Shown piece after piece: positions 16,371 to 39,340 of a stretch of DNA of 64,000 nt; positions within the stretch are counted from its first letter, which is position 1, and each line of letters opens with the position of its first letter. Under the pieces are notes generated by a model that was given only the letters and a program-made list of their open reading frames with translations, ran no database searches and was not told where the DNA came from. This DNA comes from Candidatus Uhrbacteria bacterium (GTDB lineage: Bacteria > Patescibacteriota > Patescibacteriia > UBA9934 > GWF2-40-263), in contig JAERTI010000043.1 of the NCBI GenBank assembly GCA_016844925.1, forward strand, positions 66,642 through 130,641, given 5' to 3'. The translations under genes and the position numbers were made by a program.

Positions 16371-16379
16371 AGGATTGTT

Positions 16380-16433
16380 ATGCACTTGAGCATCACCACA
16401 ACCACGACTACTACGACGACCCTTGGTCGTTGA
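16380..16433 (+). CDS. thrL: thr operon leader peptide (MHLSITTTTTTTTTLGR)
   Basis: AGGA RBS, 17-codon ORF with 9 consecutive Thr codons plus Ile, immediately upstream of thrA. Confidence 0.7.
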   Translation: MHLSITTTTTTTTTLGR

Positions 16434-16464
16434 GGTTCGTGTTGTTGGGAGGATTTAAAGACAA

Positions 16465-16495
16465 CCGCGGCCCTCAATGGGGTCCGTTTTATTTC
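16465..16495 (+). terminator. attenuator terminator
   Basis: cggccc..gggtccg hairpin followed by ttttatttct directly before thrA ATG. Confidence 0.4.
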
Positions 16496-16496
16496 T

Positions 16497-18929: not shown

Positions 18930-18933
18930 TCCT

Positions 18934-19974: not shown

Positions 19975-20591
19975 TCATCTCACTGATAGGGATGAGTAAT
20001 TGTGGGAAATCGCATTGGTCAAAGAAACTTGAGGACGAGCGGGGGTATGAGCGTCGGTGTTGTGATGATTTGATTGCTGGGCAATTGAATGATCTGTTGC
20101 CTGAAGTTGATATTACTGACATGGATGCGTTTGCTGCCTGGATGGGGATGCCGCATGAGTTCGGCTATGCTGAGCGAGAGGGGGCGTACTTGGCCGGGGA
20201 AGAGGGGGCCCTGTTGGAGGCGGTGAAGGTGTCTCAGGGGGATGTAGTGATCGATACGACAGGAAGTGTCATCTACTTATCCGAGAATCGACTACGCCAC
20301 CTAAAGCAGATTTCGACAGTGGTTTATCTGTCGACGACAGACGACCAAGTCGCGTCAATGACAGAAAAGTTTTTTGCGTGCCCAAAGCCCCTTGTGTGGG
20401 GAGAGTGTTTTGACCAACGTTCGGTAGAATCGAATGAACAGGCGCTAAGAAGGTGCTATCCAGATTTATTACGATGGCGACGGGAGCGATATAAAACCCT
20501 TGCGGACGTCACGATTCCTTATGAGCGTTCTCATGACCCCAGCTATTCAGTCGACAAATTTCTTTATGATGTACTACAGCACAAACGATAA
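19971..20591 (+). CDS. P-loop kinase of shikimate-kinase-like fold; candidate alternative homoserine kinase
   Basis: IISLIGMSNCGKSH Walker A near N-terminus; ATGA overlap with asd stop; sits between asd and thrC. Confidence 0.5.
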   Translation: MIISLIGMSNCGKSHWSKKLEDERGYERRCCDDLIAGQLNDLLPEVDITDMDAFAAWMGMPHEFGYAEREGAYLAGEEGALLEAVKVSQGDVVIDTTGSVIYLSENRLRHLKQISTVVYLSTTDDQVASMTEKFFACPKPLVWGECFDQRSVESNEQALRRCYPDLLRWRRERYKTLADVTIPYERSHDPSYSVDKFLYDVLQHKR

Positions 20592-21843
20592 GTTTCACAG
20601 GGTCGACGCACGTCAGGCGGTGCTTGCAGGTCTTGCTCCAGACGGTGGGCTCTACATGCCCGAGTCGATTCCCAGATTGCCGCAACGATTCTTTGATGAG
20701 CTGAGAGGAAAGTCTTTGCAAGAGATAGGCTATATCGTCTCCAGCATTTTCTTGGGAGATGTTGTTCCAAGTGACAAGCTTCATGAGATTGTTGCCGGCA
20801 CGTTAGATTTTGAAATACCCCTAAGGCAGGTCGGGGAGGCTCAAGTCCTCGAGCTCTTTCACGGACCAACGCTCGCCTTTAAAGATGTGGGTGCCAGATT
20901 CATGGCTCGTCTCATGAGTTATTTTGTTGAGGAGGACGATCGTGAGCTTACAATCCTTGTTGCGACATCAGGAGATACAGGTTCTGCCGTGGCTCACGGA
21001 TTTCACAATGTTCCAGGGATTAAGGTTGTGGTGCTTTATCCAAGTGGGAAGGTGAGCGATCTGCAAGAGAAGCAGATGACAACCCTTGGAGGCAATATTA
21101 CGGCTCTTGAGGTGGATGGGGTGTTTGATGATTGCCAACGACTCGTGAAGAAGGCATTCGTCGATTCAGAGCTTTCACAGGCCCTCCGACTTTCTAGTGC
21201 GAACTCGATCAACATCGCCCGGCTGATCCCGCAGAGCTTTTATTACTTCTGGGCCATGGCGCAGTTACCCAAGGGGGAGCCACAGGTAATTACAGTTCCG
21301 TCTGGTAACTTTGGGAACCTCACTGCTGGTCTGATGGCAAAGCGTATGGGACTTCCAGTGGATAGGTTTATTGCTGCAACAAATGAGAACGATGTCGTAC
21401 CTGAATACCTCATCACGGAGCAATTCAATCCACGCCCATCTGTTGCAACGATCTCTAATGCTATGGACGTCGGCAATCCATCGAACTTCGTTCGCATGCT
21501 CGAGTTATACGATCGCAACGCTCAGAAGATGCGTGAGGACGTGGTGGGAATCAAGGTGAGTGAGAAGCAGACACGCGAGACAATCGCACGTGTTCATCGT
21601 GAGTATGGTTATGTGCTCGATCCGCACGGAGCTGTTGCCTACAACGCCTGCGAGCGATCTGTGAAACGAGGGGTGGTGATTGAGACTGCACATCCAGCAA
21701 AGTTTAAGGATGTGGTGGAGGAGGAGACGGGTGAACCTGTTGAGATTCCCGACAGTCTAGCTAAGTGCATGGAGAAGGAGAAGAAGAGTCAGAGAATTTC
21801 ATCTGACTTCACAGAGTTAAAACAGTTCCTACTTACTCGATAA
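20566..21843 (+). CDS. thrC: threonine synthase
   Basis: PLP-binding AFKD lysine motif, about 425 aa. Confidence 0.9.
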   Translation: MMYYSTNDKFHRVDARQAVLAGLAPDGGLYMPESIPRLPQRFFDELRGKSLQEIGYIVSSIFLGDVVPSDKLHEIVAGTLDFEIPLRQVGEAQVLELFHGPTLAFKDVGARFMARLMSYFVEEDDRELTILVATSGDTGSAVAHGFHNVPGIKVVVLYPSGKVSDLQEKQMTTLGGNITALEVDGVFDDCQRLVKKAFVDSELSQALRLSSANSINIARLIPQSFYYFWAMAQLPKGEPQVITVPSGNFGNLTAGLMAKRMGLPVDRFIAATNENDVVPEYLITEQFNPRPSVATISNAMDVGNPSNFVRMLELYDRNAQKMREDVVGIKVSEKQTRETIARVHREYGYVLDPHGAVAYNACERSVKRGVVIETAHPAKFKDVVEEETGEPVEIPDSLAKCMEKEKKSQRISSDFTELKQFLLTR

Positions 21844-21860
21844 CTAACGATAAGTAATAA

Positions 21861-21897
21861 CAAAAACACCTGCCATCGGGCAGGTGTTTTGAACTGA
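21861..21897 (+). terminator. rho-independent terminator after thrC
   Basis: acacctgcc atcg ggcaggtgt hairpin followed by TTTT. Confidence 0.6.
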
Positions 21898-22029
21898 TAT
21901 CTCCAAATAGTTCTCCACTAAGTGATTGCAACGGTTATTCCGGGTGCATTCTCACAGAATGCGTTCCGATCAAGCGAACTTGATCTCGACCTAGGACCAT
22001 GTCTAGTCCGTAGACTAGATATCTCCCTA

Positions 22030-23525
<1,496 letters not shown>

Positions 23526-23530
23526 ATATA

Positions 23531-23592
23531 TCTCTGACCGAAGTCAGAGACTCTGCTAATGATGTCCGAAGACATCGTGACGTCCGAAGACG
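23531..23592 (-). other. 16S leader: three consecutive hairpins with UUCG loops on the transcribed strand
   Basis: tctctgac-cgaa-gtcagaga, gatgtc-cgaa-gacatc, gacgtc-cgaa-gacgtc on the plus strand. Confidence 0.4.
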
Positions 23593-23673
23593 TCTAGGAA
23601 TAAACGTTACAATCACACAGTAGATAACTGTCTGATTTGGAGATGTTCAGTTGTAAAGATCAACTGCGGCAGC

Positions 23674-23702
23674 ATTGTAAATGTAAGTGAAAAACGTGTC
23701 AA
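23674..23702 (-). promoter_or_regulatory. candidate rRNA promoter
   Basis: minus strand TTGACA, 17-nt spacer, TACAAT, about 140 nt upstream of the 16S 5' end. Confidence 0.5.
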
Positions 23703-23871
23703 TAGCTGGCGGGTGAAGGGCGGGGATATGGTGTGGACATTGGATTTTTGACTATTTTCAGGTAGACTATATGCGTTCACTGCCCTCTGTCTGTGTTCGC
23801 TTCCATGCAGCATAGGTCGACAGACTTCTCCGGGCAATGCACAGAACATGTAAACAACTGTTGTTATAGCT

Positions 23872-24222
23872 ATGGCTGACAAGTACTTTGACCAGGAGTT
23901 CGTTGAATACATCGTGCGCGGAATCGTCAACAATCCAGATGACGTCCGTACCGAGCGTATTGTTGACGAGCGTGGCGTCCTTATTACCCTCCACATCAAC
24001 CAGGAGGACATGGGATACGTCATCGGTCGACAGGGTCAGACAGCTCGCGCAGTCCGCACATTGCTCAAGATCGTTGGCGCTAAGGAGAATGCCCGCGTCA
24101 ACCTCAAGATCTATGAGCCAGAAGGATCACGTCGCCCACCACGTCGCACAGAAGACGAGGGAGGCAACGATGACTTCGGCGGATCTGACGACGATACGTC
24201 TGTAGACGACCTGGGAATCTAG
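23872..24222 (+). CDS. khpA: KH-domain RNA-binding protein (KhpA-like) with acidic tail
   Basis: VIGRQGQTARAVRTLL GXXG KH motif. Confidence 0.7.
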   Translation: MADKYFDQEFVEYIVRGIVNNPDDVRTERIVDERGVLITLHINQEDMGYVIGRQGQTARAVRTLLKIVGAKENARVNLKIYEPEGSRRPPRRTEDEGGNDDFGGSDDDTSVDDLGI

Positions 24223-24235
24223 TCCTAGATCAAAC

Positions 24236-24273
24236 ATATAAAACCGGTTACCATAGAGGTAATCGGTTTTTTG
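24236..24273 (+). terminator. rho-independent terminator
   Basis: aaaccggttacc...gtaatcggttt hairpin followed by TTTTT. Confidence 0.6.
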
Positions 24274-25386
24274 TATATGCTTGCAACAAAAACACAAAAG
24301 TTCATTTATCGACGGGCACTTAAGCCTTATTTTTTTTCTCAAGATCCGGAGCATGTTCATGATCGGATGTGCGCACTCGGAAAACGGATAGGAGAATCTG
24401 CCATCGGGCGATCTCTTTGCAAGAGATTGTTTACCTATGCCCATCCTTCTCTGGAGCAGGAGCTGCTTGGTATGCATTTTAGGAACCCAGTGGGACTTAC
24501 GGCAGGATTCGACAAAAATGCTGAACTAACCGGAGTCATGCCAGCAGTAGGATTTGGATTCGAGGTGGTTGGTTCTGTCACCGGAGAACCTTGTGCTGGA
24601 AATGCAAAACCTAGACTATGGCGCCTGCCAAAGTCTAAAGGGCTGCTCGTCTATTACGGGTTAAAGAACGATGGCTGTGAGGCGATTGCTTCTCGGCTTT
24701 CCAGAAAACAGTTCGAGATCCCAATCGGCATTAGTATTGCAAAGACGAATTCACCTGAGACGGTTGAATTTACAAAAGGAATTGCCGATTACAAGAAAGC
24801 CATGGAGCAGATGAGTGATGTGGGAGACTATTTTGTCGTGAACATTAGCTGCCCCAATGCATTTGGTGGTGAGCCGTTTGCTGATCCCAAACGTTTAGAT
24901 GAGCTTCTCTCTGTTCTCGATGAGGTGCAAACAACGAAGCCTGTTCTTCTTAAGATAGCGGTCGACATCTCGTCTCGTGAACTTGATGAGTTGGTGGAGG
25001 TGAGCGATCGTCATCGAGTGCATGGGTTCATTCTCTCGAATCTTACGAAGAAACATGATCGGCCAACGATTAATCAAGATGAGCTCGGTGGGATTGAAAA
25101 AGGAGGGATCAGCGGTCGTCCAACCTCTGAGCCATCCAATCAGCTTATCTCTCACCTCTATAAGACGGCGGGAGACCGTTATGTTATCGTCGGGGTCGGT
25201 GGGATTTTTTCTGCTGAGGATGCTTACGAGAAGATCTGTTCAGGGGCATCGCTTGTGCAGCTGGCTACCGGAATGATTTTTGAGGGGCCTCAGCTCATTG
25301 GAGAGATTAATAAAGGACTGGTGCAACTCTTAAAAAAGGATGGGTTTGAGTCGATTGCTCAGGCCGTGGGGAGTAAACACTCATAG
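24271..25386 (+). CDS. pyrD: dihydroorotate dehydrogenase (quinone, class 2)
   Basis: GFDKNAE, VVNISCPN, GGI..G FMN motifs. Confidence 0.85.
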   Translation: MYMLATKTQKFIYRRALKPYFFSQDPEHVHDRMCALGKRIGESAIGRSLCKRLFTYAHPSLEQELLGMHFRNPVGLTAGFDKNAELTGVMPAVGFGFEVVGSVTGEPCAGNAKPRLWRLPKSKGLLVYYGLKNDGCEAIASRLSRKQFEIPIGISIAKTNSPETVEFTKGIADYKKAMEQMSDVGDYFVVNISCPNAFGGEPFADPKRLDELLSVLDEVQTTKPVLLKIAVDISSRELDELVEVSDRHRVHGFILSNLTKKHDRPTINQDELGGIEKGGISGRPTSEPSNQLISHLYKTAGDRYVIVGVGGIFSAEDAYEKICSGASLVQLATGMIFEGPQLIGEINKGLVQLLKKDGFESIAQAVGSKHS

Positions 25387-25388
25387 GT

Positions 25389-26045
25389 ATGTCTAAAAAG
25401 AAGCAATTTGAAATCGTGACGATTTTTCCAGAGACAGTGGCGCCATACATTGAGGCGTCTATTTTGGGACGTGCCCAGAAGGATAATTTGATCCAGATTC
25501 AGGCACATGATTTACGTAATTGGACGCAGGACAAGCATCGAACCGTGGATGATACGCCTTATGGGGGTGGTGCTGGTATGGTGATGAAGGTAGAGCCGTT
25601 TGATAAAGCCGTAGAAGATTTGCGTGGAAAGGGGACAACCCGCGTGATCGTTACGAGCGCCTCGGGTAAGACGTTCACACAAGAGGATGCCAAGCGTCTG
25701 TCGGAATACGATCAACTTATTTTTCTCTGTGGGCGCTACGAGGGGATCGATCATCGCGTGCAGGAACACATTGCCGACGAGGCACTGTCGATTGGAAACT
25801 ACGTTCTCACCGGCGGGGAGCTTCCTGCGTTGGTTATGACTGATGCGATTGCACGTCTCGTGCCTGGGGTCATCGAGGCGGAGAGTCTAGAACAAGAGTC
25901 GCATGATCAGCAGGGGTATCTCGAGTATCCGCAATACACCAAACCAAGTACTTATAAAGATTGGGAGGTGCCTGAGGTGCTTCTTAGTGGTGATCACAAA
26001 AAGATTCATGACTGGCGGACTGAACAATCAGAACGAAACGACTAG
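25389..26045 (+). CDS. trmD: tRNA (guanine37-N1)-methyltransferase
   Basis: FPE, DTPYGGGAGMVM, CGRYEGIDHRV TrmD motifs. Confidence 0.9.
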   Translation: MSKKKQFEIVTIFPETVAPYIEASILGRAQKDNLIQIQAHDLRNWTQDKHRTVDDTPYGGGAGMVMKVEPFDKAVEDLRGKGTTRVIVTSASGKTFTQEDAKRLSEYDQLIFLCGRYEGIDHRVQEHIADEALSIGNYVLTGGELPALVMTDAIARLVPGVIEAESLEQESHDQQGYLEYPQYTKPSTYKDWEVPEVLLSGDHKKIHDWRTEQSERND

Positions 26046-27315
26046 TTCCCTCGGCAGTCACACACGTCTATTGCTGATTGTGGCGGCAGTCTTGCTTGTG
26101 GTGGTGGCTGTGATGGGTACGCTCCTCTACAGAAGCTCGACACAAGTTCTTGATGAGCTTCCTTATGTAATAGATCAAGAACAAGAAGTTTTTCAGGGTC
26201 GTGAGAGTGAGGAGCGGCAGCCACGTGAGGAGCAACTCACTGCTAAAGAGCAGTGCTCTTACTCTTTAGACTGGCAACCCACAAACTTTCGTCAGTCGAT
26301 TGACCAGTTACCTTACAATGTCACGGACATGCTCGTTGCAGAGGATGGAACAGTCTACGCAGCGTATAATGATGACAACAATGCGACATTTGTTGCGGGG
26401 ACGAAGGATGGTGGCTCAAGCTGGGAAGTGAGTAGTCTCCCTGATGCAGTAGTGACGATCCGAGTATTGCGTGAGATGCAAGACGGGCGTTTCCTTCTCG
26501 GGGCAACGGGGCGTGCACAGACAGCGGTCCTTTATGAGAGTCACGACGGCCTCACGTGGGAGGAGCTTGCTCAAGATGCAGGTAATGGAATTGTTCTTCC
26601 AAATGAGACATCGACAAGTGTTTGGGATATCGTGGAGCTTCCTGGTGGAGAGGTACTCATTGTTACAGATTCAAGAGACAACAATCCTGATCGAGAGAAC
26701 ATGACGCTTTACCTCTTGGAAGGGGATCGGCTTTCAGAACTCGCATCGTTCCCTGGCCTTGGGCTCTTGGCTGCGGCAGTAAATGATGAGGGACTCATCG
26801 TTGTGGCAACGGAAGAGAGCGATGAGCATGATGATCCTGAGCTTGCAGGCCAGGCGCGGATCTTCATCTCGGCAGATAACGGAGTGACGTGGGATGAAGG
26901 TGGTATCCCTCAGGGGGCGAATCGTATCTATGACCTTCACTTTCACTCTTCCGGTGTGCTCTATGCGGGAACCGGCATTAACGGCGAGCTTCTGTATTCA
27001 AGTGATAATGGTTTGACCTGGAGGGCGGCGACGCATGTACCAGAGATAGAATTGCCGTTTGGCGACGAGGGAGGGATGCGTGTTGTTGAGGTGAGTCGTG
27101 TGTATCAAATCTTAGAACTCTGTGATGGCTCAATGCTTGTTGGCACAGGAAATAACGGCGGGGCTATCTTCTACACCGATGACGCTGGAAAGACTTGGCA
27201 GGAGACTGAGGATACCGGACCGAATAATGTTGTCTGGGGACTCGCCCAGGAAGAAGATGGCACGATCTGGATCGGAACCGGGTCTCGTGGGGGTGACGTG
27301 CTGACAACAAAATAA
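26008..27315 (+). CDS. membrane-anchored BNR/Asp-box repeat beta-propeller protein
   Basis: N-terminal TM, then at least 5 SxDxGxTW Asp-box repeats; start may be alternative. Confidence 0.55.
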   Translation: MTGGLNNQNETTSSLGSHTRLLLIVAAVLLVVVAVMGTLLYRSSTQVLDELPYVIDQEQEVFQGRESEERQPREEQLTAKEQCSYSLDWQPTNFRQSIDQLPYNVTDMLVAEDGTVYAAYNDDNNATFVAGTKDGGSSWEVSSLPDAVVTIRVLREMQDGRFLLGATGRAQTAVLYESHDGLTWEELAQDAGNGIVLPNETSTSVWDIVELPGGEVLIVTDSRDNNPDRENMTLYLLEGDRLSELASFPGLGLLAAAVNDEGLIVVATEESDEHDDPELAGQARIFISADNGVTWDEGGIPQGANRIYDLHFHSSGVLYAGTGINGELLYSSDNGLTWRAATHVPEIELPFGDEGGMRVVEVSRVYQILELCDGSMLVGTGNNGGAIFYTDDAGKTWQETEDTGPNNVVWGLAQEEDGTIWIGTGSRGGDVLTTK

Positions 27316-27330
27316 AAACCCCGATGAACA
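27304..27330. terminator. bidirectional hairpin terminator at GC boundary
   Basis: ccccgatg..catcgggg palindrome with A/T runs on both sides. Confidence 0.5.
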
Positions 27331-27376
27331 TCGGGGGAGAGCGACTCGCTGCGTGCGGGTCGCTTTTCTGTTTGAG

Positions 27377-28774
27377 CTACTCGAGCTCGCCGAACCACTC
27401 GTTGTGGAGCTGGTCGAAGCGACCGTCGCCCATCATGGTCAGCAGAGCCACGTTGGCACTCTCGCGCAGGGGGCTGTCCGGCGGGAAGAGCATGCCGTAG
27501 CGCTCGGTGGTGAAGGGCTCGCCCGTCACCACGACCTCGCCGGAGCCTTCGCCCCTGGCGTGGTGGATGAGGACCGGCTCGTCGAAGACGACTGCTTCGA
27601 CGCCGCCACCCTTGAGCAGGTCGAAGCCCTGGTCGATTCGGGAGACGGCGGTGACCTTGGCACCGGCCTTGCGAGCGGCGACCTCACTGGTTGTGCCAGC
27701 CTCGACGGCGACGTGAACGCCAGCGAGGTCCGCAGCGGTGTTCATGTGGGCCGTGTTCGCCTCGTCGATCCTGATCTCGGCGATGACGCCCACGACCAGA
27801 CCGACGAAGATGAAGCCGACGTACATCATCAGCGAGGTGAGGATGCGGGCCGGCCACGAGCGGGCCGTGTAGTGACCGTAGCCCACCGTGGTGGAGGTTA
27901 CGTTCATGAAGTAGACCGACTGGGGGAAGCCCTTCCAGAACTCGTAGGCGATCTCGCCAGGCTCGCGTTCCTTCTTGGGGTAGAAGAACCGCTCGCAGAC
28001 CCAGACCAGGAACCCGGCGAAGCACAGGAACGTGGCGTAGGAGAGGAAGACCTTGATCAGGTCCCAGTTGGTGAGGATGTTCCAGAACCCCTTGAGCATC
28101 GAGGTCTCTTCGCTGATGACCATGATGGCCAGGCCGCTGTCGTAGTACGGCAGGGAGAAGTCGACGCGCTCTTCGCGCTCACCGGTGATGGTGATGCCGG
28201 CGATGCCGACGTCTGCCTCGCCCTCAGCGACGGTGTCGATGAGGGTGGGGACGCTCTCGACGGCGATGGGCTCGTAGTCGCAGCCCATCTCCTCGGCGAT
28301 CATGTCCCAGAGCTCGATGTCGAAGCCGGTGAGCTCACCGCGCTCGTACATCACCATGGGCTCGAGCTCGTGCACCACCAGGGTGACGGGCTCGTCCACG
28401 GGGCAGGGGTCCTGCTTGTGCTCGATGACCTCGAACTCGACTTCCTCGAGCTCCACATCCGGCTCGGTGGCCGGTGGGTCCTCGGTGGCAGGGAGCTCGC
28501 CCGTCTCTCCGATGAGGGGCTCTTCTGTCGGCTCGGTCTCGTCTTCCGAGGGAAGGAGCTCTTCCTCGCCTTCTTCGTCGATCAGCTCGGGCACCACGGG
28601 TGCCGGCTCGGGATCGTCGTCCTGGGCCCACGCATCGGTCAGCGCGGGGGACAAGAGCAGGCCAAGGAGCACGAGCCCCACGGCGATGGTCTTCTGGCGG
28701 GGGCTGAGATGTCGCACGTGTACCTCCGTTTCAAGTGCAGTCAGAACAAACGCGGACGAGCGACCGTACGTCAT
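27377..28774 (-). CDS. GluR0-like ligand-gated potassium channel (SBP lobe, M1-P-M2 pore, SBP lobe)
   Basis: K+ selectivity filter TVGYG flanked by two TM helices, inserted between two halves of a periplasmic substrate-binding domain; signal peptide. Confidence 0.7.
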   Translation of the reverse strand: MTYGRSSAFVLTALETEVHVRHLSPRQKTIAVGLVLLGLLLSPALTDAWAQDDDPEPAPVVPELIDEEGEEELLPSEDETEPTEEPLIGETGELPATEDPPATEPDVELEEVEFEVIEHKQDPCPVDEPVTLVVHELEPMVMYERGELTGFDIELWDMIAEEMGCDYEPIAVESVPTLIDTVAEGEADVGIAGITITGEREERVDFSLPYYDSGLAIMVISEETSMLKGFWNILTNWDLIKVFLSYATFLCFAGFLVWVCERFFYPKKEREPGEIAYEFWKGFPQSVYFMNVTSTTVGYGHYTARSWPARILTSLMMYVGFIFVGLVVGVIAEIRIDEANTAHMNTAADLAGVHVAVEAGTTSEVAARKAGAKVTAVSRIDQGFDLLKGGGVEAVVFDEPVLIHHARGEGSGEVVVTGEPFTTERYGMLFPPDSPLRESANVALLTMMGDGRFDQLHNEWFGELE

Positions 28775-28853
28775 TTGGGTGGGTTTGTCAATAGAAATAG
28801 CCTGTATTTTGCAAAAAGAAAAGCGAGACCAGATTGGTCTCGCGCCGCGCCTC

Positions 28854-29564
28854 TCAGGAAGCTGCGGCCGTCTCGTCCTCCGGGAACAGCAGGACCGTGC
28901 CGTGGTACTGCTTTCCGACGGAGATGGAGCATCCTCCGTCCCAGAGCTCGACGCTCATGACACGGGTGCCCTTGGTGCCGTCCGTGGTGAAGGACTGGTA
29001 CTCCGCCACCTGCGTGATGTACTCGGAGGGCTTGCGTCGGTCCGCGCGCTCGGAACGGACGTGCACGGTGTAGTCGTACTCGTCCTCCACGGCGCGCCAG
29101 ACCAGGCCCTGGAACTCGAACTCCTCGGGCGGGGCGCCGTCGTCACCATGGAACCCCACGCCTTCGAAGGCGTCGAGCTGACGGACCTTCTCGGTCACGT
29201 CCTCCATGAGCCAGAACTCCCAGCGGTCCTCGTCGTCCTGCTCGCAGGTCAGGTGCATGATCGCCCCTTCCATGGGCTCACGCAGGGTGAGGCACCACCA
29301 GTACTCGTCCGGGTCGGGGTTCATGTCGTCGTCGACCAGGCTGTGCTTGTCGCGGGCGTCCACGACGTAGCTGTCGGAGCCGACGTAGATGGAGCTACCC
29401 AGGGGCACCTCGTTGTCTTCGACGACCTCTTCGGCCGTGTGCTTGCGGGGGCGCTTGCTCAGCTCCAGGTCGCGCAGCTTGCGCTTGTGGCGCCAGTACA
29501 GCACGCCTCCGAGGGTCAGGAGCGCCAGCGCTCCCAGGCTGATGCCTACCGAGATTTCGATCAT
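28854..29564 (-). CDS. membrane-anchored protein, DUF4178-like by context
   Basis: N-terminal TM followed by soluble acidic domain; neighbours are SpeE-like and DUF350. Confidence 0.35.
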   Translation of the reverse strand: MIEISVGISLGALALLTLGGVLYWRHKRKLRDLELSKRPRKHTAEEVVEDNEVPLGSSIYVGSDSYVVDARDKHSLVDDDMNPDPDEYWWCLTLREPMEGAIMHLTCEQDDEDRWEFWLMEDVTEKVRQLDAFEGVGFHGDDGAPPEEFEFQGLVWRAVEDEYDYTVHVRSERADRRKPSEYITQVAEYQSFTTDGTKGTRVMSVELWDGGCSISVGKQYHGTVLLFPEDETAAAS

Positions 29565-29583
29565 CTCTCTCTCCTTGGGGGGT

Positions 29584-31122
29584 CTAGGGAATGGTCTTCC
29601 AGGCCTGCTTGTAGGCCTCGTGAACCGTGGGGTGAATCAATCGACTCACCGCCAGATCATCCGGGCTCTCCGGAAAGATACCCTTCTCGAACCGGGTGGC
29701 TGCCTGCATGGCATCGCGATTGAGGATGTGGAGCTCCGTGCGCTCCTCGAACTGATCCAGGCGAGCCTGCAGCTCCTCGGGGCTCAGGTGATCCTCGCGT
29801 ACAGCGAGGTTGAACCCCCAGTCACCGAAGCTCGGGACGTTGATGCGGTACGGCAGGACGCTGAGTCCCGACGCATCGATGGTCGCCCAGATCGACGTGA
29901 ACGCCTCTCTGGCATGGATCGGAGACGTGGACTGGATCGCAGCGACCCCCTCAGGGAAGAGGTGGTTGCGCATGTTCCAGTAGAACTCCGTGGAGTACAG
30001 CTTGGCCAGCTCCACCCGACGCGGGTCGGGCAGGTCCACGATGATGACGTCCCACAGCTCGTCGTTTCCTTGGAGCCAGGTGTAGGCATCGTCGTGGATG
30101 ATGTGCACGCGCGGATCGTCCAGTGAACCCTCGTTGAGCTCGCTGATGACCGGGTGCGTGCGGCACAGCTCGGTCATGGCCGGATCCAAGTCCACCAAGG
30201 TGACCTGGGTGACCTGATCGTACTTGAGGATCTCGCGAATGGCCAGACCGTCACCACCGCCGAGTACCAGCACCTTGCGGGCGTCCGGGTTCACCCAGAA
30301 GGCCGGGTGGACCAGGAGCTCGTGGTAGCGGCGCTCGTCATGGCTGGCGAACTGCGTCCCGCCGTTGAGGTAGAGCCGGTAGCGGCCCTGGCTCTCTGTC
30401 AGCAGGATCTTCTGGTACGGCGTCTGCTGTGCGTAGACGATGGGGTCCTTGAAGAGCTTGGACTCGGCCTCGAAGGCCACGTCCTCGCCATGGATGCCCA
30501 ACAGGCCCACGGCCATGGTCGCGCACAATCCCATCGCCATCAGGGGCTTCGGGATGCGGCTGCGCAGGAAGTAGGCTCCCATGAATACGGCGATGGCCAG
30601 GTTGATGGCACCGCTGATCACGGGGGTGGTCACCGTCCCGAAGGTTGGGAGCAGGAAGGTGGCGTAGAGGAGTCCCGCCGCGAAGCTGCCGATGTAGTCG
30701 GCGGCGAACACGCGAGCAAGGTTCTCCTTGAGCACCACCTGACGTCGCTCGTTGAAGCGCGCCAGAAGCGGAATCTCCAACCCGATCAACAGACCGAGCA
30801 GAAGGGAGATGAAGATCGTGGCCGTCCAGGCCTGTCCCAGGCGGGCGGCCTGAGTGATGAAGATCGTGCTTCCCGCCGCGGCGACGGAGAGCATCAACTC
30901 GACGAACAGGAACAGCTTGAGCTCGCGTCCCTCAGTCAGGGACTTGCTCAGTCCAGCGCCTAGGCCCATGCCCAGCATGCACACGGAGATCGACACCGTG
31001 TAGGCGGCAATGGAGTTCCCCAGCAGGTACGACACCGTCGTTCCCACCGAGTATTCCGCCACCATTCCACAGAAGCCGGACGCGAAGATCGCGGCCATGA
31101 GGATCAGTTGGTCGGTTTTCAC
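29584..31122 (-). CDS. spermidine synthase-like aminopropyltransferase fused to an N-terminal multi-TM domain
   Basis: about 6 TM helices, then VLVLGGGDGLAIREILKY and DVIIVDLPDP SpeE signatures. Confidence 0.75.
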   Translation of the reverse strand: MKTDQLILMAAIFASGFCGMVAEYSVGTTVSYLLGNSIAAYTVSISVCMLGMGLGAGLSKSLTEGRELKLFLFVELMLSVAAAGSTIFITQAARLGQAWTATIFISLLLGLLIGLEIPLLARFNERRQVVLKENLARVFAADYIGSFAAGLLYATFLLPTFGTVTTPVISGAINLAIAVFMGAYFLRSRIPKPLMAMGLCATMAVGLLGIHGEDVAFEAESKLFKDPIVYAQQTPYQKILLTESQGRYRLYLNGGTQFASHDERRYHELLVHPAFWVNPDARKVLVLGGGDGLAIREILKYDQVTQVTLVDLDPAMTELCRTHPVISELNEGSLDDPRVHIIHDDAYTWLQGNDELWDVIIVDLPDPRRVELAKLYSTEFYWNMRNHLFPEGVAAIQSTSPIHAREAFTSIWATIDASGLSVLPYRINVPSFGDWGFNLAVREDHLSPEELQARLDQFEERTELHILNRDAMQAATRFEKGIFPESPDDLAVSRLIHPTVHEAYKQAWKTIP

Positions 31123-31243
31123 TCAGGTTTCTCCCGGTTGAAGATGGTGAATTGTAGATTGCTTCTCTTGAGGGGCGCACCGTTTGCGCATCTCAAGAAA
31201 AAGCTCCAGAGCGTATCTGGAGCAGCGTCTGAGGTGAAAGACG

Positions 31244-32128
31244 CTAGACGAAGGTGGCCACGAGCAGGATCGCCGAGCCGATGGTCAGCGCGGCGTCCAT
31301 GAAGCCAGCGCCGGTGTTGTTCTGCTCGAAGATCTCATCGTGCATGTTGGTCTTCTGCGTCAGGTTGATGGCGCCCATGAAGACCGCCCGCAGGATCCCG
31401 AGCAGGATCACCAGGACCAGCGAGAGGCCGGCCACCCACACGACACCTTCCATCAGCGAGAGGTTCTCGGCCTTGATGGACTCCGCGACGCCGGCCAGCA
31501 TGTAGTTGGCGGCGAAGGCGAAGCCCAGCAGGCTGACGCCCGCGGCCGGGTTGTCGTCGGCGAAGAACTCCTTGAAGAAGCTCGCGCCGCGCAGGTGGGT
31601 GAAGCGGTAGAGCAGCACCACGGTCAGCGCGCAGAGCATCACGGTCACGGCGATGGCCGCGTCCTCCAGCGGGGCCGGACCGAGGGTGTTCTCCTCGGTC
31701 ATCCCGTTGACCACACCCATCATGAGCGCGAGGCTCACGCAGGCGGCGGCCCAGTTGTGCTGGGTGAAGATCTCGTGGTTGAGGTCGTCACCGCCGTTGA
31801 AGGCGGCCACGGCCTTGGACAGGATGGTTCGCGCGACCACCACCAGGGCGATCGACATGACCACCGCCAGGGCAGCGGCGCCGACGTCGTGGGCGAAGGA
31901 AGCGAGCGACGGTCCGCTGATGGCGCTGTAGCTGACGTACAGCAGCGCCATGAGGAACCCGCCGGTCTCCAGACCCGCCACGGGGTTGTCCTTCTCGAAG
32001 AGCGCGTCACGCAGGGAGATCCCCGGCGTGAGCACCCGGTTCATGACCGGGAACCCGACGAGCAGGACCAGGCCGACAGCGACAGCCAGGTACGGCAGGT
32101 CGAACTTCAGGGCTTCGATGATGTTCAT
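31244..32128 (-). CDS. DUF350-like polytopic membrane protein (four repeats)
   Basis: repeated hydrophobic GL..G..L modules, no soluble domain; context with SpeE-like. Confidence 0.45.
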   Translation of the reverse strand: MNIIEALKFDLPYLAVAVGLVLLVGFPVMNRVLTPGISLRDALFEKDNPVAGLETGGFLMALLYVSYSAISGPSLASFAHDVGAAALAVVMSIALVVVARTILSKAVAAFNGGDDLNHEIFTQHNWAAACVSLALMMGVVNGMTEENTLGPAPLEDAAIAVTVMLCALTVVLLYRFTHLRGASFFKEFFADDNPAAGVSLLGFAFAANYMLAGVAESIKAENLSLMEGVVWVAGLSLVLVILLGILRAVFMGAINLTQKTNMHDEIFEQNNTGAGFMDAALTIGSAILLVATFV

Positions 32129-32161
32129 GAGTGTGTCCTCAGATGTCTGTTGGAGGGTTGT

Positions 32162-33112
32162 CTACTTGCCACCGCCGCCGGAGCCGCGGGAGCGAGAGCT
32201 CGAGCCTCCGGAGCGGACGGACTTGCTGGGCTTGGAGCTGGAGCTCGATCGCGAGGACGTGGACTTCTTGGTGGAAGACCCGCTCGTGGACGAGGTGCTC
32301 TTGGTGCTCGAGGCCTTGGACCGGGTCGACTTCACGTAGGTGCTGCCGGTGGTCGACGCCTTGGTCGAGCTCGTCTTGTACGTGCTCGGCCGCGTGGTCT
32401 TGGTGGCCGTCTGCGAGCTCAGCGTGCTCTTGGACCCGACGTAGGTGTTGCGGGTGCTGTTGATCACCGTGACCGAGCGCACCGGGCGGCTGTAGTAGCT
32501 GCCGCCGTAGTACCCAGCGTTGTAGTAGCCCCAGCCGTAGCCGTAGTAGGGGCTGCGTCCGGGGGACAGCAGGTAGCCCCACAGGAAGCCACTCGTGAAG
32601 CCGCTGCTTCCGTGGTAGTGGTCGTGGTAGTAGTGGTTGTCGTACCCGCTGACGTAGTCGGGGTACCCACCGTAGATCTCCACGTCCTCGCTCTCGGTCG
32701 TGTGCTGGACCGTCAGCTCTGCCACGGCGGTGTAGCCGTCTTCCTTCTCCGGGGCGCTGGAGGGGTAGGCGATGAAGGCCAGGTTGATCTTCCCGTCCTT
32801 CTGCTCTTCCTCCACGGCCACGAAGTCCACGGAACCATCACCGTCGATGTCGACGTTGTTGATCCCGGTCTCGGGGTCGTTGATCTTGGCCTCGAGCTCC
32901 GGCATGTCCGAGATTTCCTCGGACTTGATGAGCTTGATGATCGTCTCCAGGTCGAAGGCGCTGGCGTCCAGGAGGAACACCTGGCCCTGGGCCTCGGTAC
33001 TGGTCGTCGTCGTGCTGCTCTTCTGCGGCGAGCTGTTGCTGCTGCTCGACGGCCCACAGGCCGTCATCATGGCCAGCGCCATCAGCGCTGCCAGCAGGTG
33101 ACTGATTCGCAT
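32162..33112 (-). CDS. lipoprotein with Gly/Tyr-rich and Ser/Thr/Lys-rich low-complexity regions
   Basis: lipobox LAMMTAC; GYYGGSYY and STKSTSS tracts. Confidence 0.5.
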   Translation of the reverse strand: MRISHLLAALMALAMMTACGPSSSSNSSPQKSSTTTTSTEAQGQVFLLDASAFDLETIIKLIKSEEISDMPELEAKINDPETGINNVDIDGDGSVDFVAVEEEQKDGKINLAFIAYPSSAPEKEDGYTAVAELTVQHTTESEDVEIYGGYPDYVSGYDNHYYHDHYHGSSGFTSGFLWGYLLSPGRSPYYGYGWGYYNAGYYGGSYYSRPVRSVTVINSTRNTYVGSKSTLSSQTATKTTRPSTYKTSSTKASTTGSTYVKSTRSKASSTKSTSSTSGSSTKKSTSSRSSSSSKPSKSVRSGGSSSRSRGSGGGGK

Positions 33113-33116
33113 CTTC

Positions 33117-33671
33117 TCACTCCCTCTCGGTCAAAGACGTGTGGGAGAGGACAACCCTCACCCCCACATCAGGTGTGTAGTACTCGTGAACGGTTTTGAT
33201 CTGGACCTGTCCGGATGGATCCACGGACACGGCAACGAGCGTTCTGGGCTCGGCCGGACCGGGGAAGGTCTGATCGAGGGTCAGGTCTGCCCCCTCGAAC
33301 AGTTCATCTCGCAGAGTCTGTCGACGCGCGGCGTCGGCAAGCTCAAGTTGAAGGGTTGCCATGACACGGTGCGTTCCCAGTCGGTAGCTCAGCCGTGGCG
33401 TCGCGGCGATGTCACGTGACCAGTGCACGGGATGGAACCCGTACTGGTGCACGTCGACGCACGCGAGCAATTCCACGAAGCTCAGCGCTCCGGTGAGTCG
33501 CACGAAGTGGCTCTCGCCAATGATGGCTGCCTCCACAGACAAGCCATCGGGGAACCCACGCACTTCGCGCTTGAGCACTGTCAGCGCGCTCGGATCGAAC
33601 GTGCCAACGGATGCTTCCGTGCTGAAGTGGGCGAAGGTCAGGCCCTCTGGGGTCTGGAAGACTGGTTTCAT
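33117..33671 (-). CDS. hypothetical protein (185 aa)
   Basis: ORF track gives 326 aa but the N-terminal 142 residues look spurious; internal ATG at 33671 gives a plausible 185-aa product; TTGACA promoter upstream. Confidence 0.4.
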   Translation of the reverse strand: MKPVFQTPEGLTFAHFSTEASVGTFDPSALTVLKREVRGFPDGLSVEAAIIGESHFVRLTGALSFVELLACVDVHQYGFHPVHWSRDIAATPRLSYRLGTHRVMATLQLELADAARRQTLRDELFEGADLTLDQTFPGPAEPRTLVAVSVDPSGQVQIKTVHEYYTPDVGVRVVLSHTSLTERE

Positions 33672-33732
33672 CTGATGTTTCACCTCAGTTGTAAGGGACG
33701 CAAACAGCACAAAAATTTGGCCATTTGACGCG

Positions 33733-33800
33733 ACAGAGTAGAATTTTTTGCCAGTTTTGTCAATGGATAAAAAGAAAAACCCGCCTGTGTTGGCGGGGAG
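33733..33800 (-). promoter_or_regulatory. terminator+promoter module (minus strand)
   Basis: hairpin cccgcc/ggcggg with T-run, then TTGACA, 17-nt spacer, TACTCT. Confidence 0.45.
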
Positions 33801-33801
33801 C

Positions 33802-34281
33802 TCAGCAAGCGACGTATTCGCTGCTGAAAGGGAGCTTGGAGACGTGGAAGCCCTGCCCGAGATCGGGGTCGAACTCGTCGATCTCGAGGATCTCCAGTAC
33901 CTCGATGATGTGCAGAGCGCTCTTGCCCAGGGGGCTCTTGGCTCGCTCCTCTGGCTCGGCTGCGCGTGCCAATACGATGGCGTCGCACTGCCGCAACTGG
34001 ATGCTGTGCAGGGGCTGGTCCGTATCCCTGCGGATGGCCAGGACCCCAACGACGTCAGTGGAGGACGAGTTCGTTCCCAGTGGGTGACTGATGCCAACTA
34101 GGCAGAGACAGTCGTCGCCCCAATCCTCTGCGGCGCACAGGATGCGTCGGGACTTCTCGAGTTTCTTCTCTGGGGTGAGGGCCAGTGCCTGTTCGATGGC
34201 GTGGCGCTGCTGTGCGATGAGGGCCATGGGTATCTCCTTGGTAGATGAGTCTTCTGCATCCGGTTGCGACGGTCCTGTCAC
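33802..34281 (-). CDS. small cytoplasmic protein, paralog A (possible roadblock/LC7-like fold)
   Basis: C-terminal half aligns with 36286..36714 (CDAxVLxR ... KLP..E.FVAC). Confidence 0.45.
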   Translation of the reverse strand: MTGPSQPDAEDSSTKEIPMALIAQQRHAIEQALALTPEKKLEKSRRILCAAEDWGDDCLCLVGISHPLGTNSSSTDVVGVLAIRRDTDQPLHSIQLRQCDAIVLARAAEPEERAKSPLGKSALHIIEVLEILEIDEFDPDLGQGFHVSKLPFSSEYVAC

Positions 34282-36008: not shown

Positions 36009-36214
36009 AGAAAAGACGCCTGGTATCGGAGGAAGTAGAAAACGACGGGGCCAGCGTGAAAATAAAATCAGACGCCGGGGCGTCGTATTCAGTCTTCCTT
36101 TGCATCTTTCCCTTGCGGGATGGAGTTCGCACCTTATCGATTACTCGACAGGTTGCGGGCAGGTCATAGGGCCAATTCCCTCACTGCTCTCTGAATACGT
36201 TTCTTCAGTTGTTG

Positions 36215-36285: not shown

Positions 36286-36714
36286 CTAGCAGGCCACGAA
36301 GGTCTCGGTGGCCGGCAGCTTGGCCAGCTTCAGGGGGCTTGTCTGATCCTCGGGCTCGGCGAAGGTGAGCGCCTGGACGATCTTCATCGCGCTGCGGCTC
36401 AGCACGCTGGCCTCGCGCTCGTCCGCCGTGGGCGACCGCACCAGCACCATCGCGTCGCAGGCGGACAGCTTGATGGTGTCGTCCTGCTTCAGGTCCTTCT
36501 TGCCCAGGACGAACACGCCGACGGCGCGGTCCGAGCTCGCGTTCGGGCCCTGGCCCTTGCTCACGCCGGCGAACTTGATCTGCTTGCCATCCACGCTCCA
36601 CTGCTGGGGCAGCTCTCCCTCCCTCAGCACGGCTCCCACGTTGATCTGCCCGTCGACACCCAGCCGCCTGAGCAGCGTGTCGATCGCGGGTCGTTCGTTG
36701 GCCATGACACCCAT
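36286..36714 (-). CDS. small cytoplasmic protein, paralog B
   Basis: paralog of 33802..34281. Confidence 0.45.
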   Translation of the reverse strand: MGVMANERPAIDTLLRRLGVDGQINVGAVLREGELPQQWSVDGKQIKFAGVSKGQGPNASSDRAVGVFVLGKKDLKQDDTIKLSACDAMVLVRSPTADEREASVLSRSAMKIVQALTFAEPEDQTSPLKLAKLPATETFVAC

Positions 36715-39304: not shown

Positions 39305-39340
39305 AAAAAACCACTGAACGGGTCAGTGGTTTTGTTGTTA
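39305..39340. terminator. bidirectional terminator at GC boundary
   Basis: ccactga acggg tcagtgg hairpin with T-runs on both strands. Confidence 0.5.

What the first reader, a model, noticed from the sequence alone, without database searches (positions are those of the whole stretch)
27377..28774. GluR0-like prokaryotic glutamate-receptor-type potassium channel
The protein has a signal peptide, an acidic linker, then a substrate-binding-domain lobe, two TM helices flanking a pore helix with K+-channel selectivity filter TVGYG, and a second SBP lobe. This is the S1-M1-P-M2-S2 topology of GluR0-type channels. Such ligand-gated K+ channels are sporadic in bacteria.
Basis: partly seen in the sequence, partly recalled or inferred. 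Interest (0 to 1): 0.6.

Follow-up and report, generated by a model that had tools for sequence, protein, structure and literature searches.

The report
GluR0-type ligand-gated potassium channel gene
This gene encodes a bacterial relative of glutamate receptors: an outward-facing amino-acid-binding clamshell interrupted by a potassium-channel pore. It is a well-known kind of protein, found here in an unusual host (a tiny, uncultured Uhrbacteria-like bacterium) and in a small divergent branch of the family.

Summary
The minus-strand ORF 27377..28774 encodes a signal peptide, a disordered acidic tail of about 77 residues, and a family-3 solute-binding domain split by an M1, pore-helix, TTVGYG, M2 module. 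There is no amino-terminal domain and no M4. Pfam, the PDB sequence search, an AlphaFold model (pLDDT 93) and Foldseek all agree. The best fold match is the Nostoc GluR0 ligand-binding core (2pyy), and AMPA-receptor LBD-TMD chains align over about 375 columns. The Arg and Asp that anchor the alpha-carboxyl and alpha-amino groups of an amino-acid ligand are conserved.

Corrections:
- The true start is probably GTG at 28717, which has a GGAGG 5 nt upstream.
- The family is not rare: 473 clusters at 50% identity score E<=1e-30.

Specific to this case:
- Only three relatives share more than 40% identity.
- The filter reads GYG-His, not GYG-Asp.
- A Glu sits at a pocket position that is Lys in GlnBP and Thr in Nostoc GluR0.
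- The host is Uhrbacteria-like (Patescibacteria).
- In three genomes the gene follows a DUF350, membrane-fused spermidine-synthase, DUF4178-like module, but as its own transcription unit.

The ligand and the physiological role are unproven. Verdict: a new member of a known kind, of moderate to low interest.

The parts
27377..28774 (-). ORF as reported (465 aa, ATG to stop): the GluR0-type channel gene.
   Evidence: An identical protein (P0001) is present in NCBI and Logan assemblies.
27377..28717 (-). Probable true CDS (446 aa), starting at GTG 28717..28715.
   Evidence: A GGAGG at 28727..28723 lies 5 nt upstream of the GTG, and there is no SD before ATG 28774. Homologues start at the equivalent point.
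28625..28717 (-). Signal peptide, residues 20-50 in 465-aa numbering: MRHLSPRQK, then a hydrophobic core, then TDAWA|QDD.
   Evidence: Hydropathy peak at residues 27-50. Helix 6-30 in the full-length model. Cleavage is inferred from the AxA motif.
28394..28624 (-). Acidic Pro/Glu-rich disordered N-terminal tail, residues 51-127. It ends with the clade-conserved Cys124.
   Evidence: 31 D/E, 13 P, net charge -30. pLDDT of about 50-54 and no secondary structure. Similar tails occur in P0002 and P0003.
28097..28393 (-). S1 segment of the ligand-binding domain, residues 128-226. It contains T195 and R200, the alpha-carboxylate anchor.
   Evidence: Lig_chan-Glu_bd covers residues 147-219. Alignments to 2pyy and GlnBP. 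R200 is nearly invariant in the family.
27752..28066 (-). Channel module, residues 237-341: M1 (237-264), cytoplasmic loop, pore helix (279-295), filter, M2 (307-341).
   Evidence: Ion_trans_2 5.2e-11. AF2 helices. PDB K+ channel pore matches.
27872..27892 (-). Selectivity filter T295-T-V-G-Y-G-H301.
   Evidence: Read directly from the sequence. TTVGYG|D occurs in 43 of 49 non-redundant channel loci. The His variant occurs only in this protein and P0002.
27380..27751 (-). S2 segment of the ligand-binding domain, residues 342-465. It contains E358, T361, T362, F397 and D398, the alpha-amino anchor.
   Evidence: Alignments to 2pyy and GlnBP. D398 is nearly invariant in the family.
27309..27336 (-). 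Intrinsic-terminator-like hairpin plus T-run after the channel stop codon.
28813..28843 (-). Intrinsic-terminator-like hairpin plus T-run after the upstream DUF4178-like gene. It separates that gene from the channel.
   Evidence: The equivalent hairpins in L002 and L167 were read by eye in the sequence, not found by the scan.
28763..28815 (-). Promoter-like region with TTTGCA and TTGACA motifs. It aligns to a TTGACAAA..CTATTT block upstream of the orthologues.
   Evidence: The consensus scan did not call a sigma-70 promoter here, so this is an inference.

Best explanation
The gene encodes a GluR0-type (prokaryotic ionotropic-glutamate-receptor-like) ligand-gated K+ channel subunit.

Shown here:
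- The exported protein has a disordered acidic N-terminal tail.
- A bilobed family-3 solute-binding domain is formed by two segments, S1 and S2.
- A K+-channel pore module (M1, pore helix, TTVGYG, M2) is inserted between S1 and S2.
- There is no amino-terminal domain and no M4.

Inferred from the family (Chen et al. 1999, from my own knowledge; Ger 2010, PMC2950845; Zhang 2026, PMC13099474):
- Four subunits form one pore.
- The binding domains face outward, so the pore is inverted relative to KcsA. The filter and His301 then lie at the cytoplasmic mouth.
- An alpha-amino acid is clamped by Arg200 and Thr195 (carboxylate) and Asp398 (amine).
- Clamshell closure pulls on the S1-M1 and M2-S2 linkers and opens the M2 gate. 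K+ then flows down its electrochemical gradient.

The ligand is probably an amino acid but need not be glutamate. The host appears to be an Uhrbacteria-like Patescibacteria (CPR) bacterium. In such a cell the binding domain would sit on the cell surface and could report externally supplied (possibly host-derived) amino acids as a K+ or membrane-potential signal.

The gene is transcribed on its own. In three related genomes it lies directly after a DUF350, 7TM-spermidine-synthase, DUF4178-like envelope module.
For: Architecture and fold:
- Pfam: SBP_bac_3 spans residues 136-463 as a split match. Ion_trans_2 covers 277-333 and Lig_chan-Glu_bd covers 147-219.
- PDB sequence search: the best hit is the Nostoc GluR0 LBD 2pyy at 1.4e-40, matched in two stretches that flank the channel insert. 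Synechocystis GluR0 (1ii5) scores 1e-18.
- AF2 model: pLDDT 93.0 and pTM 0.79, with helices in the order pre-M1, M1, pore helix, M2.
- Foldseek: 2pyy_A has target TM-score 0.94 and rmsd 1.8. AMPA-receptor LBD-TMD chains align over 372-391 columns.
- The TM module alone matches K+ channel pore domains such as KCNQ3, LmK, K2P, NaK and MlotiK.
- Only three hydrophobic segments exist: the signal peptide, M1 and M2.

Conserved residues:
- R200 and D398 are nearly invariant across 39 family members. They align with GlnBP R75 and D157.
- By my own alignment to KcsA (read by eye, KcsA numbering from memory), Tyr288 and Phe289 occupy the pore-helix aromatic-cuff positions.

Expression signals:
- SD plus GTG start.
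- Terminator-like hairpins on both sides of the gene.

Host:
- RlmN is 71-77% identical to named Candidatus Uhrbacteria proteins.
- The 7TM-SpeE has a graded homologue series that reaches Uhrbacteria GW2011_GWF2_41_16.

Synteny:
- The SpeE, DUF4178-like, channel order is found in the window genome, in L002 and in L167.
Against: - No functional data exist for this protein or its clade.
- Tetramer formation, gating and K+ selectivity are inferred.
- The residue after GYG is His, not the usual Asp.
- The two other syntenic orthologues carry TIGEG and TVGFG filters, so selectivity may not be conserved in the clade.
- Pocket positions differ from glutamate- or glutamine-binding relatives: GlnBP K115 is E358 here, H156 is F397 and F50 is V175.
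- The model's coordinates could not be inspected, so pocket geometry and the proposed Cys124-Cys165 disulfide are unverified.
- The taxonomic assignment rests on two proteins and a divergent 16S.
Confidence: 0.82

Rival explanations
1. The architecture and gating principle are the same, but the physiological ligand is not glutamate. It would be a neutral or basic amino acid or amine, selected by the clade-specific acidic and His residues E358, H135 and E136. The ligand might be connected to the neighbouring aminopropyltransferase module.
For: - E358 replaces GlnBP K115 and the Thr of Nostoc GluR0. The Glu is kept in window, P0002 and P0065.
- The VHE motif before the conserved Pro is clade-specific.
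- Adjacency to the SpeE-7TM and DUF4178-like genes is retained in three genomes even though the channels are only 42-44% identical.
- Ravi et al. 2024 report a K+ channel in a related DUF350 polyamine operon type.
Against: - The alpha-amino-acid anchors R200, T195 and D398 are intact, so a plain polyamine is unlikely.
- P0003 has Val at the E358 position.
- Whether E358 points into the pocket could not be checked, because no coordinates were available.
- The channel has its own terminator and promoter.
- Three other related modules lack it.
Confidence: 0.35
2. The protein conducts K+ but is not really ligand-gated in vivo. It would act as a passive or tension- or ion-strength-responsive K+ pathway for volume and osmotic control, with the binding domain mainly structural.
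For: - Synechocystis GluR0 complemented K+ uptake in E. coli. It also affected cell shrinkage after KCl upshock, and the authors raise a tension response.
- The long acidic tail could concentrate cations at the outer mouth. This is an inference.
Against: - The ligand-anchoring residues are strictly conserved, which argues for selection on ligand binding.
- According to its section heading (the section itself was not read), the same paper finds that the soluble domains are required for function.
Confidence: 0.1
3. The protein is a non-conducting, membrane-anchored binding protein, either a sensor or an ABC-transporter SBP tethered by a degenerate channel remnant.
For: - Such derivatives exist in the family. 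P0044 from Afipia has lost the filter.
- NCBIfam's best model is GlnH.
Against: - The filter TTVGYG is intact, and Tyr288/Phe289 sit at the pore-helix aromatic positions by my own alignment to KcsA.
- Ion_trans_2 passes its Pfam cut-off: 42.7 bits against 22.5.
- The GlnH score of 124 bits is far below its 303-bit cut-off.
- No ABC permease or ATPase gene lies nearby among the neighbours scanned on both sides.
Confidence: 0.04

Closest known systems
Synechocystis sp. PCC 6803 GluR0 (Slr1257; LBD structures 1ii5, 1iit, 1iiw)
   Same: - S1-M1-P-M2-S2 order, signal peptide, no ATD and no M4.
- TVGYG-type K+ filter.
- Conserved Arg and Asp ligand anchors.
- The outward-facing LBD with an inverted pore was shown experimentally for GluR0.
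   Different: - The relation is distant. The sequence-search E-value is 1e-18, against 1.4e-40 for Nostoc GluR0.
- This protein has an acidic N-terminal tail of about 77 residues.
- It has GYG-His, not GYG-Asp, and an insertion in the M1-P loop.
- It has E358 in the pocket region.
- The host is Patescibacteria-like, not a cyanobacterium.
Nostoc punctiforme GluR0 ligand-binding core (PDB 2pyy, L-glutamate complex)
   Same: It is the best sequence match (1.4e-40) and the best fold match (target TM-score 0.94, rmsd 1.8). It shares the ITIT-x-ERE motif, the FD-x-P motif and F397.
   Different: Nostoc has Thr where this protein has E358. It has ATRVIPPF where this clade has VHELEPMV. Glutamate specificity therefore cannot simply be transferred.
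Periplasmic glutamine-binding protein GlnBP/GlnH (1ggg, 1wdn, 4f3p) and other family-3 amino-acid SBPs
   Same: Same clamshell fold. The A67, G68, T70, R75 and D157 equivalents are conserved. NCBIfam's top model is GlnH.
   Different: - A channel module is inserted between the two segments.
- The GlnH score is far below its cut-off: 124 bits against 303.
- The Gln-specific K115 and H156 are replaced by E and F.
- There is no ABC transporter partner.
Eukaryotic AMPA/kainate/NMDA receptors (LBD-TMD layers, e.g. 8p3s, 9rn4)
   Same: The LBD plus M1-P-M3 core superposes over about 375 columns, with query TM-score up to 0.67.
   Different: - This protein has no amino-terminal domain and no M4.
- It has no SYTANLAAF gate motif.
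- Its filter is K+-type, not a Q/R/N-site non-selective pore.
- Identity is only 18-20%.
K+ channel component of DUF350 (YjfL) polyamine / PspA-type operons (Ravi et al. 2024, PMC11237479)
   Same: A K+ channel gene sits next to a module containing DUF350 and polyamine-type enzymes. The module here also has DUF2617, a lipoprotein and a DUF4178-like gene.
   Different: - The channel described there senses an intracellular ligand. This one has an extracellular amino-acid-binding domain.
- This gene is separately transcribed.
- It is absent from three other related modules, L165, L166 and the P0331 contig.

Membership tests
GluR0-type prokaryotic iGluR homologue (Ger et al. 2010 Group 1) | The solute-binding domain is split into S1 and S2 by a two-TM channel insert (S1-M1-P-M2-S2). 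| tested here: met
   SBP_bac_3 spans 136-463 and Ion_trans_2 (277-333) lies inside it. 2pyy matches in two stretches, 128-223 and 337-462. AF2 secondary-structure order agrees.
GluR0-type prokaryotic iGluR homologue (Ger et al. 2010 Group 1) | K+ channel signature filter (T-x-G-Y-G) after a pore helix. | tested here: met
   T295-T-V-G-Y-G300 follows helix 279-295. The module matches solved K+ channel pores. The following residue is His, not Asp.
GluR0-type prokaryotic iGluR homologue (Ger et al. 2010 Group 1) | Conserved S1 Arg (alpha-carboxyl) and S2 Asp (alpha-amino) ligand anchors. | tested here: met
   R200 and D398 are nearly invariant in the 39-sequence alignment. They align with GlnBP R75 and D157.
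GluR0-type prokaryotic iGluR homologue (Ger et al. 2010 Group 1) | An N-terminal signal peptide places the binding domain outside the cell. | tested here: met
   An n-h-c pattern ends in AWA|QDD, with a hydropathy peak at 27-50. The full-length model has helix 6-30 there. No dedicated signal-peptide predictor was available, and cleavage is inferred.
GluR0-type prokaryotic iGluR homologue (Ger et al. 2010 Group 1) | No amino-terminal domain and no third TM helix (M4) after S2. | tested here: met
   The protein ends 2 residues after the S2 match. Only three hydrophobic segments are present. Residues 51-127 are disordered and do not form a domain.
GluR0-type prokaryotic iGluR homologue (Ger et al. 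2010 Group 1) | The ligand-binding core has the GluR0 / family-3 SBP clamshell fold. | tested here: met
   Foldseek gives 2pyy_A target TM-score 0.94 and rmsd 1.8. The model has pLDDT 93.
GluR0-type prokaryotic iGluR homologue (Ger et al. 2010 Group 1) | Amino-acid (glutamate) gated, K+-selective current from a tetramer. | not testable with these tools
   This needs electrophysiology, flux assays and oligomer determination. Only monomer models could be made.
ABC-transporter glutamine-binding protein GlnH | Scores above the NCBIfam equivalog cut-off as a contiguous soluble or lipoprotein SBP. | tested here: not met
   NF007029 scores 124.4 bits against a cut-off of 303, in two stretches interrupted by the channel.
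Eukaryotic-type iGluR | Amino-terminal domain, M4 helix and SYTANLAAF gate motif. | tested here: not met
   All three are absent from the sequence. Only the LBD-TMD core superposes.
DUF350 / 7TM-spermidine-synthase / DUF4178 envelope module (Ravi et al. 2024) | The channel is a regular, co-transcribed component of the module. | tested here: not met
   The channel is adjacent in three genomes: the window, L002 and L167. It is absent from L165, L166 and the P0331 contig. It is separated from the module by a terminator-like hairpin in the window. Similar hairpins were read by eye in L002 and L167.

The most novel reading that the evidence does not exclude
In a sub-lineage of Uhrbacteria-like CPR bacteria, this divergent GluR0 clade is a surface receptor-channel functionally tied to the neighbouring DUF350, 7TM-aminopropyltransferase, DUF4178 envelope module. 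In this reading it is gated by a non-acidic amino acid or amino-acid-like amine, such as an ornithine-, arginine- or aminopropyl-type compound recognised by E358, H135 and E136. It would be tuned by cytoplasmic pH through His301 at the inverted filter mouth. The result would convert host- or envelope-derived chemical cues into K+ flux in an episymbiont.
Probability: 0.1. Interest if true: 0.6.

Novelty: new member of a known kind. Interest (0 to 1): 0.3.

Why it matters
GluR0-type channels are the accepted prokaryotic model for how glutamate receptors arose from a binding protein plus a K+ pore. Only one member has been studied physiologically, and only recently (PMC13099474).

This member adds a divergent, rare clade in a reduced-genome, probably host-dependent lineage, where few sensory devices are expected. 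Within one syntenic orthologue group the filter varies naturally: TVGYGH, TVGFGY and TIGEG. The clade also has an altered pocket residue. It could therefore be a useful natural series for studying how ligand specificity and ion selectivity drift in this scaffold.

It does not change the understanding of the family.

Tried and rejected
- **Genome scan with the 39-sequence alignment.** I used the 3-sequence alignment instead. The window's own genome is not among the species representatives.
- **JGI metagenome scan.** It gave no relative above 37% identity.
- **Operon with the polyamine-type module.** Across 160 related loci fetched by the genome and metagenome scans, SpeE and DUF350 neighbours occurred only in L002/L005, which are one genome. 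L167, fetched later, is a further syntenic genome. Other Uhrbacteria-like modules lack the channel. Terminator-like hairpins separate the genes. I therefore rejected co-transcription and kept only 'conserved adjacency'.
- **Recent horizontal import as the cause of the GC3 jump.** This is not supported. The SpeE-7TM has a graded Uhrbacteria-like homologue series.
- **Pfam on the neighbouring unknown proteins.** There were no significant hits. The 236-aa protein could be tied to DUF4178 only indirectly, through 27% identity (E 1e-19) to the L166 protein that Pfam assigns to DUF4178.
- **Pocket geometry and the Cys124-Cys165 disulfide.** The model coordinates are not exposed, so neither could be checked.
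- **The afdb50 fold library.** It was unavailable.
- **16S classification.** It was possible only negatively: at most 74.5% identity to any full-length rRNA gene among the listed best hits in the plasmid collection.
- **Sigma-70 promoter scan.** It called nothing upstream of the gene. The promoter proposal rests on a conserved TTGACA-containing block.
Full report
**1. Observation**

The minus-strand ORF 27377..28774 (465 aa) exists exactly as described. An identical protein is recorded from an NCBI contig of 261,502 bp and from an independent Logan assembly of SRR13374099.

The first ATG has no Shine-Dalgarno sequence. Codon 20 is a GTG at 28717 preceded by GGAGG with a 5-nt spacer. Starting there gives MRHLSPRQK, then a hydrophobic core, then TDAWA|QDD. 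This lines up with the N-termini of the two closest homologues. I therefore take 27377..28717 (446 aa) as the likely CDS.

Hydropathy shows only three hydrophobic segments: residues 27-50, 238-261 and 309-339. Residues 51-127 contain 31 Asp/Glu and 13 Pro and have net charge -30. The full-length AlphaFold model gives this stretch no secondary structure and pLDDT of about 50-54.

**2. What it is**

Domain and sequence searches:
- Pfam gives SBP_bac_3 (9.5e-27) spanning residues 136-463. Inside it lie Ion_trans_2 (5.2e-11, residues 277-333) and Lig_chan-Glu_bd (7.6e-10, residues 147-219).
- NCBIfam's best model, GlnH, scores 124 bits against a 303-bit cut-off, in two pieces.
- The best solved relative is the Nostoc punctiforme GluR0 ligand-binding core 2pyy (1.4e-40). 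It matches as two stretches, 128-223 and 337-462, that flank the membrane insert. Synechocystis GluR0 (1ii5) scores 1e-18.
- The membrane insert alone matches K+ channel pore domains: KCNQ3 3.3e-6, Listeria LmK 4.6e-6, and also K2P, NaK and MlotiK.

Structure prediction:
- An AlphaFold2 model of residues 115-465, built with 39 family sequences, has pLDDT 93.0 and pTM 0.79.
- In 465-aa numbering it shows pre-M1 226-235, M1 237-264, pore helix 279-295 and M2 307-341.
- Foldseek against the PDB returns 2pyy_A (target TM-score 0.94, rmsd 1.8). It also returns many AMPA-receptor LBD-TMD chains aligned over 372-391 columns, with query TM-score up to 0.67.

That scenario is excluded.

**3. Residue-level reading**

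- **Filter.** It reads T295-T-V-G-Y-G-H301. By my own alignment to KcsA (read by eye, KcsA numbering from memory), Tyr288 and Phe289 occupy the aromatic-cuff positions (KcsA W67 and W68).
- **Ligand anchors.** The family alignment shows R200 and D398 nearly invariant. These are the Arg (alpha-carboxyl) and Asp (alpha-amino) that Ger et al. give as the conserved ligand anchors. HMMER alignment to E. coli GlnBP maps A67, G68, T70 and R75 to A192, G193, T195 and R200, and D157 to D398.
- **Side-chain positions.** These differ from GlnBP: K115 becomes E358, H156 becomes F397 and F50 becomes V175. Nostoc GluR0 has Thr at the E358 position. The Glu is kept in P0002 and P0065, while P0003 has Val.

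The protein almost certainly binds an alpha-amino acid. Which one is open.

**4. Mechanism**

The shown parts are the architecture, the fold and the conserved anchors. The rest is inferred from the family:
- Four subunits form the pore.
- The binding domains are outside and the pore is inverted relative to KcsA. This topology was shown experimentally for Synechocystis GluR0. Here it is consistent with the signal peptide and with Lys/Arg-rich loops on either side of the P-loop.
- Ligand-driven clamshell closure opens the M2 gate, and K+ flows passively.
- In TWIK1 the His that follows GYG at the filter mouth (H122) is the proton sensor. In the inverted topology His301 would face the cytoplasm, so sensitivity to internal pH is a reasonable guess.
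- Physiologically, Synechocystis GluR0 mediates K+ influx and affects cell volume under KCl stress.

**5. Family size and position**

Against 1.84 billion representative proteins there are 9,665 hits at E<=1e-3 and 473 at E<=1e-30. Most of the best 150 listed are 330-400-aa proteins matched across the whole S1-to-S2 region. Genome hits that span S1 to S2 come from Desulfobacterota, Bryobacterales, Poribacteria and others. The family is therefore widespread though patchy, not rare.

This protein's own branch is small: P0002 (52%), P0003 (44%) and P0065 (42%). All others are at most 39% identical. Features of the branch:
- An acidic N-terminal tail. P0065 lacks it.
- A conserved Cys pair, C124 and C165.
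- A VH(E/P) motif before the conserved Pro.
- An insertion in the cytoplasmic M1-P loop.
- Non-canonical residues in or after the filter: TVGYGH twice, TVGFGY and TIGEGY. By contrast, TTVGYG|D occurs in 43 of 49 non-redundant channel loci.

**6. Host and context**

Host:
- RlmN at 39338..40372 is 71-77% identical to proteins named Candidatus Uhrbacteria.
- The membrane-fused spermidine-synthase homologue has a graded series of relatives, from 71% down to 48%, that reaches Uhrbacteria GW2011_GWF2_41_16.
- The 16S rRNA gene at 22031..23527 is at most 74.5% identical to any full-length rRNA gene among the listed best hits in the plasmid collection.

The host is therefore very probably a Patescibacteria (CPR) bacterium. 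I found no paper linking CPR bacteria with ionotropic glutamate receptor homologues.

Neighbouring genes, all on the same strand upstream of the channel:
- a DUF2617 protein;
- a lipoprotein;
- an 8-TM DUF350 protein;
- a TM-fused Spermine_synth protein;
- a 236-aa protein that is 27% identical (E 1e-19) to a Pfam-assigned DUF4178 protein of L166.

This matches the module that Ravi et al. 2024 describe. That paper also mentions a K+ channel with an intracellular sensor in a related operon type.

The order SpeE, DUF4178-like, channel recurs in L002 (SpeE 71% identical, channel 43%) and in L167 (SpeE 62%, channel 42%). Three other related modules lack the channel.

In all three syntenic genomes a hairpin plus T-run and then a TTGACA-containing conserved block lie between the DUF4178-like gene and the channel. 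The hairpins in L002 and L167 were read by eye in the sequence. A second terminator follows the channel. I conclude that the channel is an independent transcription unit with conserved adjacency. This is suggestive of a functional link but is not proof.

**7. Verdict**

The protein is a new, divergent member of the known GluR0-type family. It has an unusual host and a few clade-specific residues that might alter ligand and ion specificity. Nothing found here points to a new kind of system. Interest is about 0.3.

Noticed in passing
window 36099..36201 (-): A SAM riboswitch (RF00162, 55.5 bits against a gathering score of 44.4). It lies between a 142-aa gene and a 286/300-aa gene of unknown function. 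It sits at the head of the minus-strand gene string that runs through DUF2617, the lipoprotein, DUF350 and the TM-fused spermidine-synthase homologue. A SAM-sensing leader before an aminopropyltransferase-type module would make metabolic sense. The gene it directly precedes has no recognisable family.
   Followed up: partly
window 27200..27400 boundary; genes at 27377..33112 compared with 1..27315: There is a sharp compositional step at the convergent gene ends. GC3 is 0.86-0.94 for the channel, DUF4178-like, SpeE-7TM, DUF350 and lipoprotein genes. It is also about 0.9 for two membrane or secreted proteins at 36.8-38.6 kb. By contrast it is 0.36-0.53 for all genes in the left 27 kb, 0.62 for RlmN and 0.52 for bS16. 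The junction is also present in an independent Logan contig. The SpeE homologue series suggests the module is native to the lineage, so the step is unexplained.
   Followed up: partly
window 22031..23527 (-): A complete bacterial 16S rRNA gene with no 23S or 5S gene anywhere in the 64-kb window, so the rRNA genes appear unlinked. It is at most 74.5% identical to any full-length rRNA gene among the listed best hits in the plasmid collection. This is consistent with a deep-branching (CPR) lineage.
   Followed up: partly
window 28854..34097 (-): An envelope module of the type described by Ravi et al. 2024:
- a DUF2617 protein;
- a lipoprotein with a Tyr/Gly-rich region and a Ser/Thr-rich tail (32162..33112);
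- a DUF350 protein with two repeats (31244..32128);
- a TM-fused Spermine_synth protein (29584..31122);
- a TM-anchored acidic DUF4178-like protein (28854..29564).

Its function is unknown.
   Followed up: partly
window 36286..36714 (-) and 33802..34281 (-): Two ORFs that look paralogous by eye. Logan gene calls make them 142 and 141 aa. Both end in ...VAC and neither has a called family. One lies upstream of the riboswitch. The other overlaps the long N-terminal extension of the mechanically listed DUF2617 ORF, which suggests the real DUF2617 gene is the shorter 184-aa call.
   Followed up: no
L002/L005 10001..11344 and L167 2129..3271: The syntenic orthologues of the channel carry different filter sequences: TTIGEGY in P0003 and TTVGFGY in P0065. 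Ion selectivity may therefore differ within one orthologue group.
   Followed up: partly
L005 (CAZIDX010000013.1, GCA_964538435.1): The record is titled 'uncultured Gammaproteobacteria bacterium'. It nevertheless carries the same module, with SpeE 71% and DUF350 70% identical to the Uhrbacteria-like window genome. The label or the binning of that contig looks doubtful.
   Followed up: no
window 28786..28815; L002 9915..9945; L167 2024..2052: An intergenic block, roughly TTGACAAA(A)T.C...CTATTT..AT, is conserved upstream of the channel gene in three genomes whose channel proteins are only 42-44% identical. It could be a promoter or an operator. L167 also has two tandem copies of a 24-nt unit in the leader.
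   Followed up: partly
window 8428..14954 (+): A type IV pilus gene set: PilB-like T2SSE with an MshEN domain, PilC-like T2SSF and PilM. A histidine kinase lies nearby at 7087..7941, and a bifunctional aspartokinase/homoserine dehydrogenase lies at 16497..18929. From my own knowledge, type IV pili are common in CPR genomes.
   Followed up: no
window 40417..40953 (-): By eye from the ORF translation, this is a ribosomal protein bS16 with a long Ala/Glu/Lys-rich C-terminal extension. A KH-domain (KhpA-like) gene and trmD, which from my own knowledge often sit next to it, lie about 15 kb away on the other strand, with pyrD between them.
   Followed up: no
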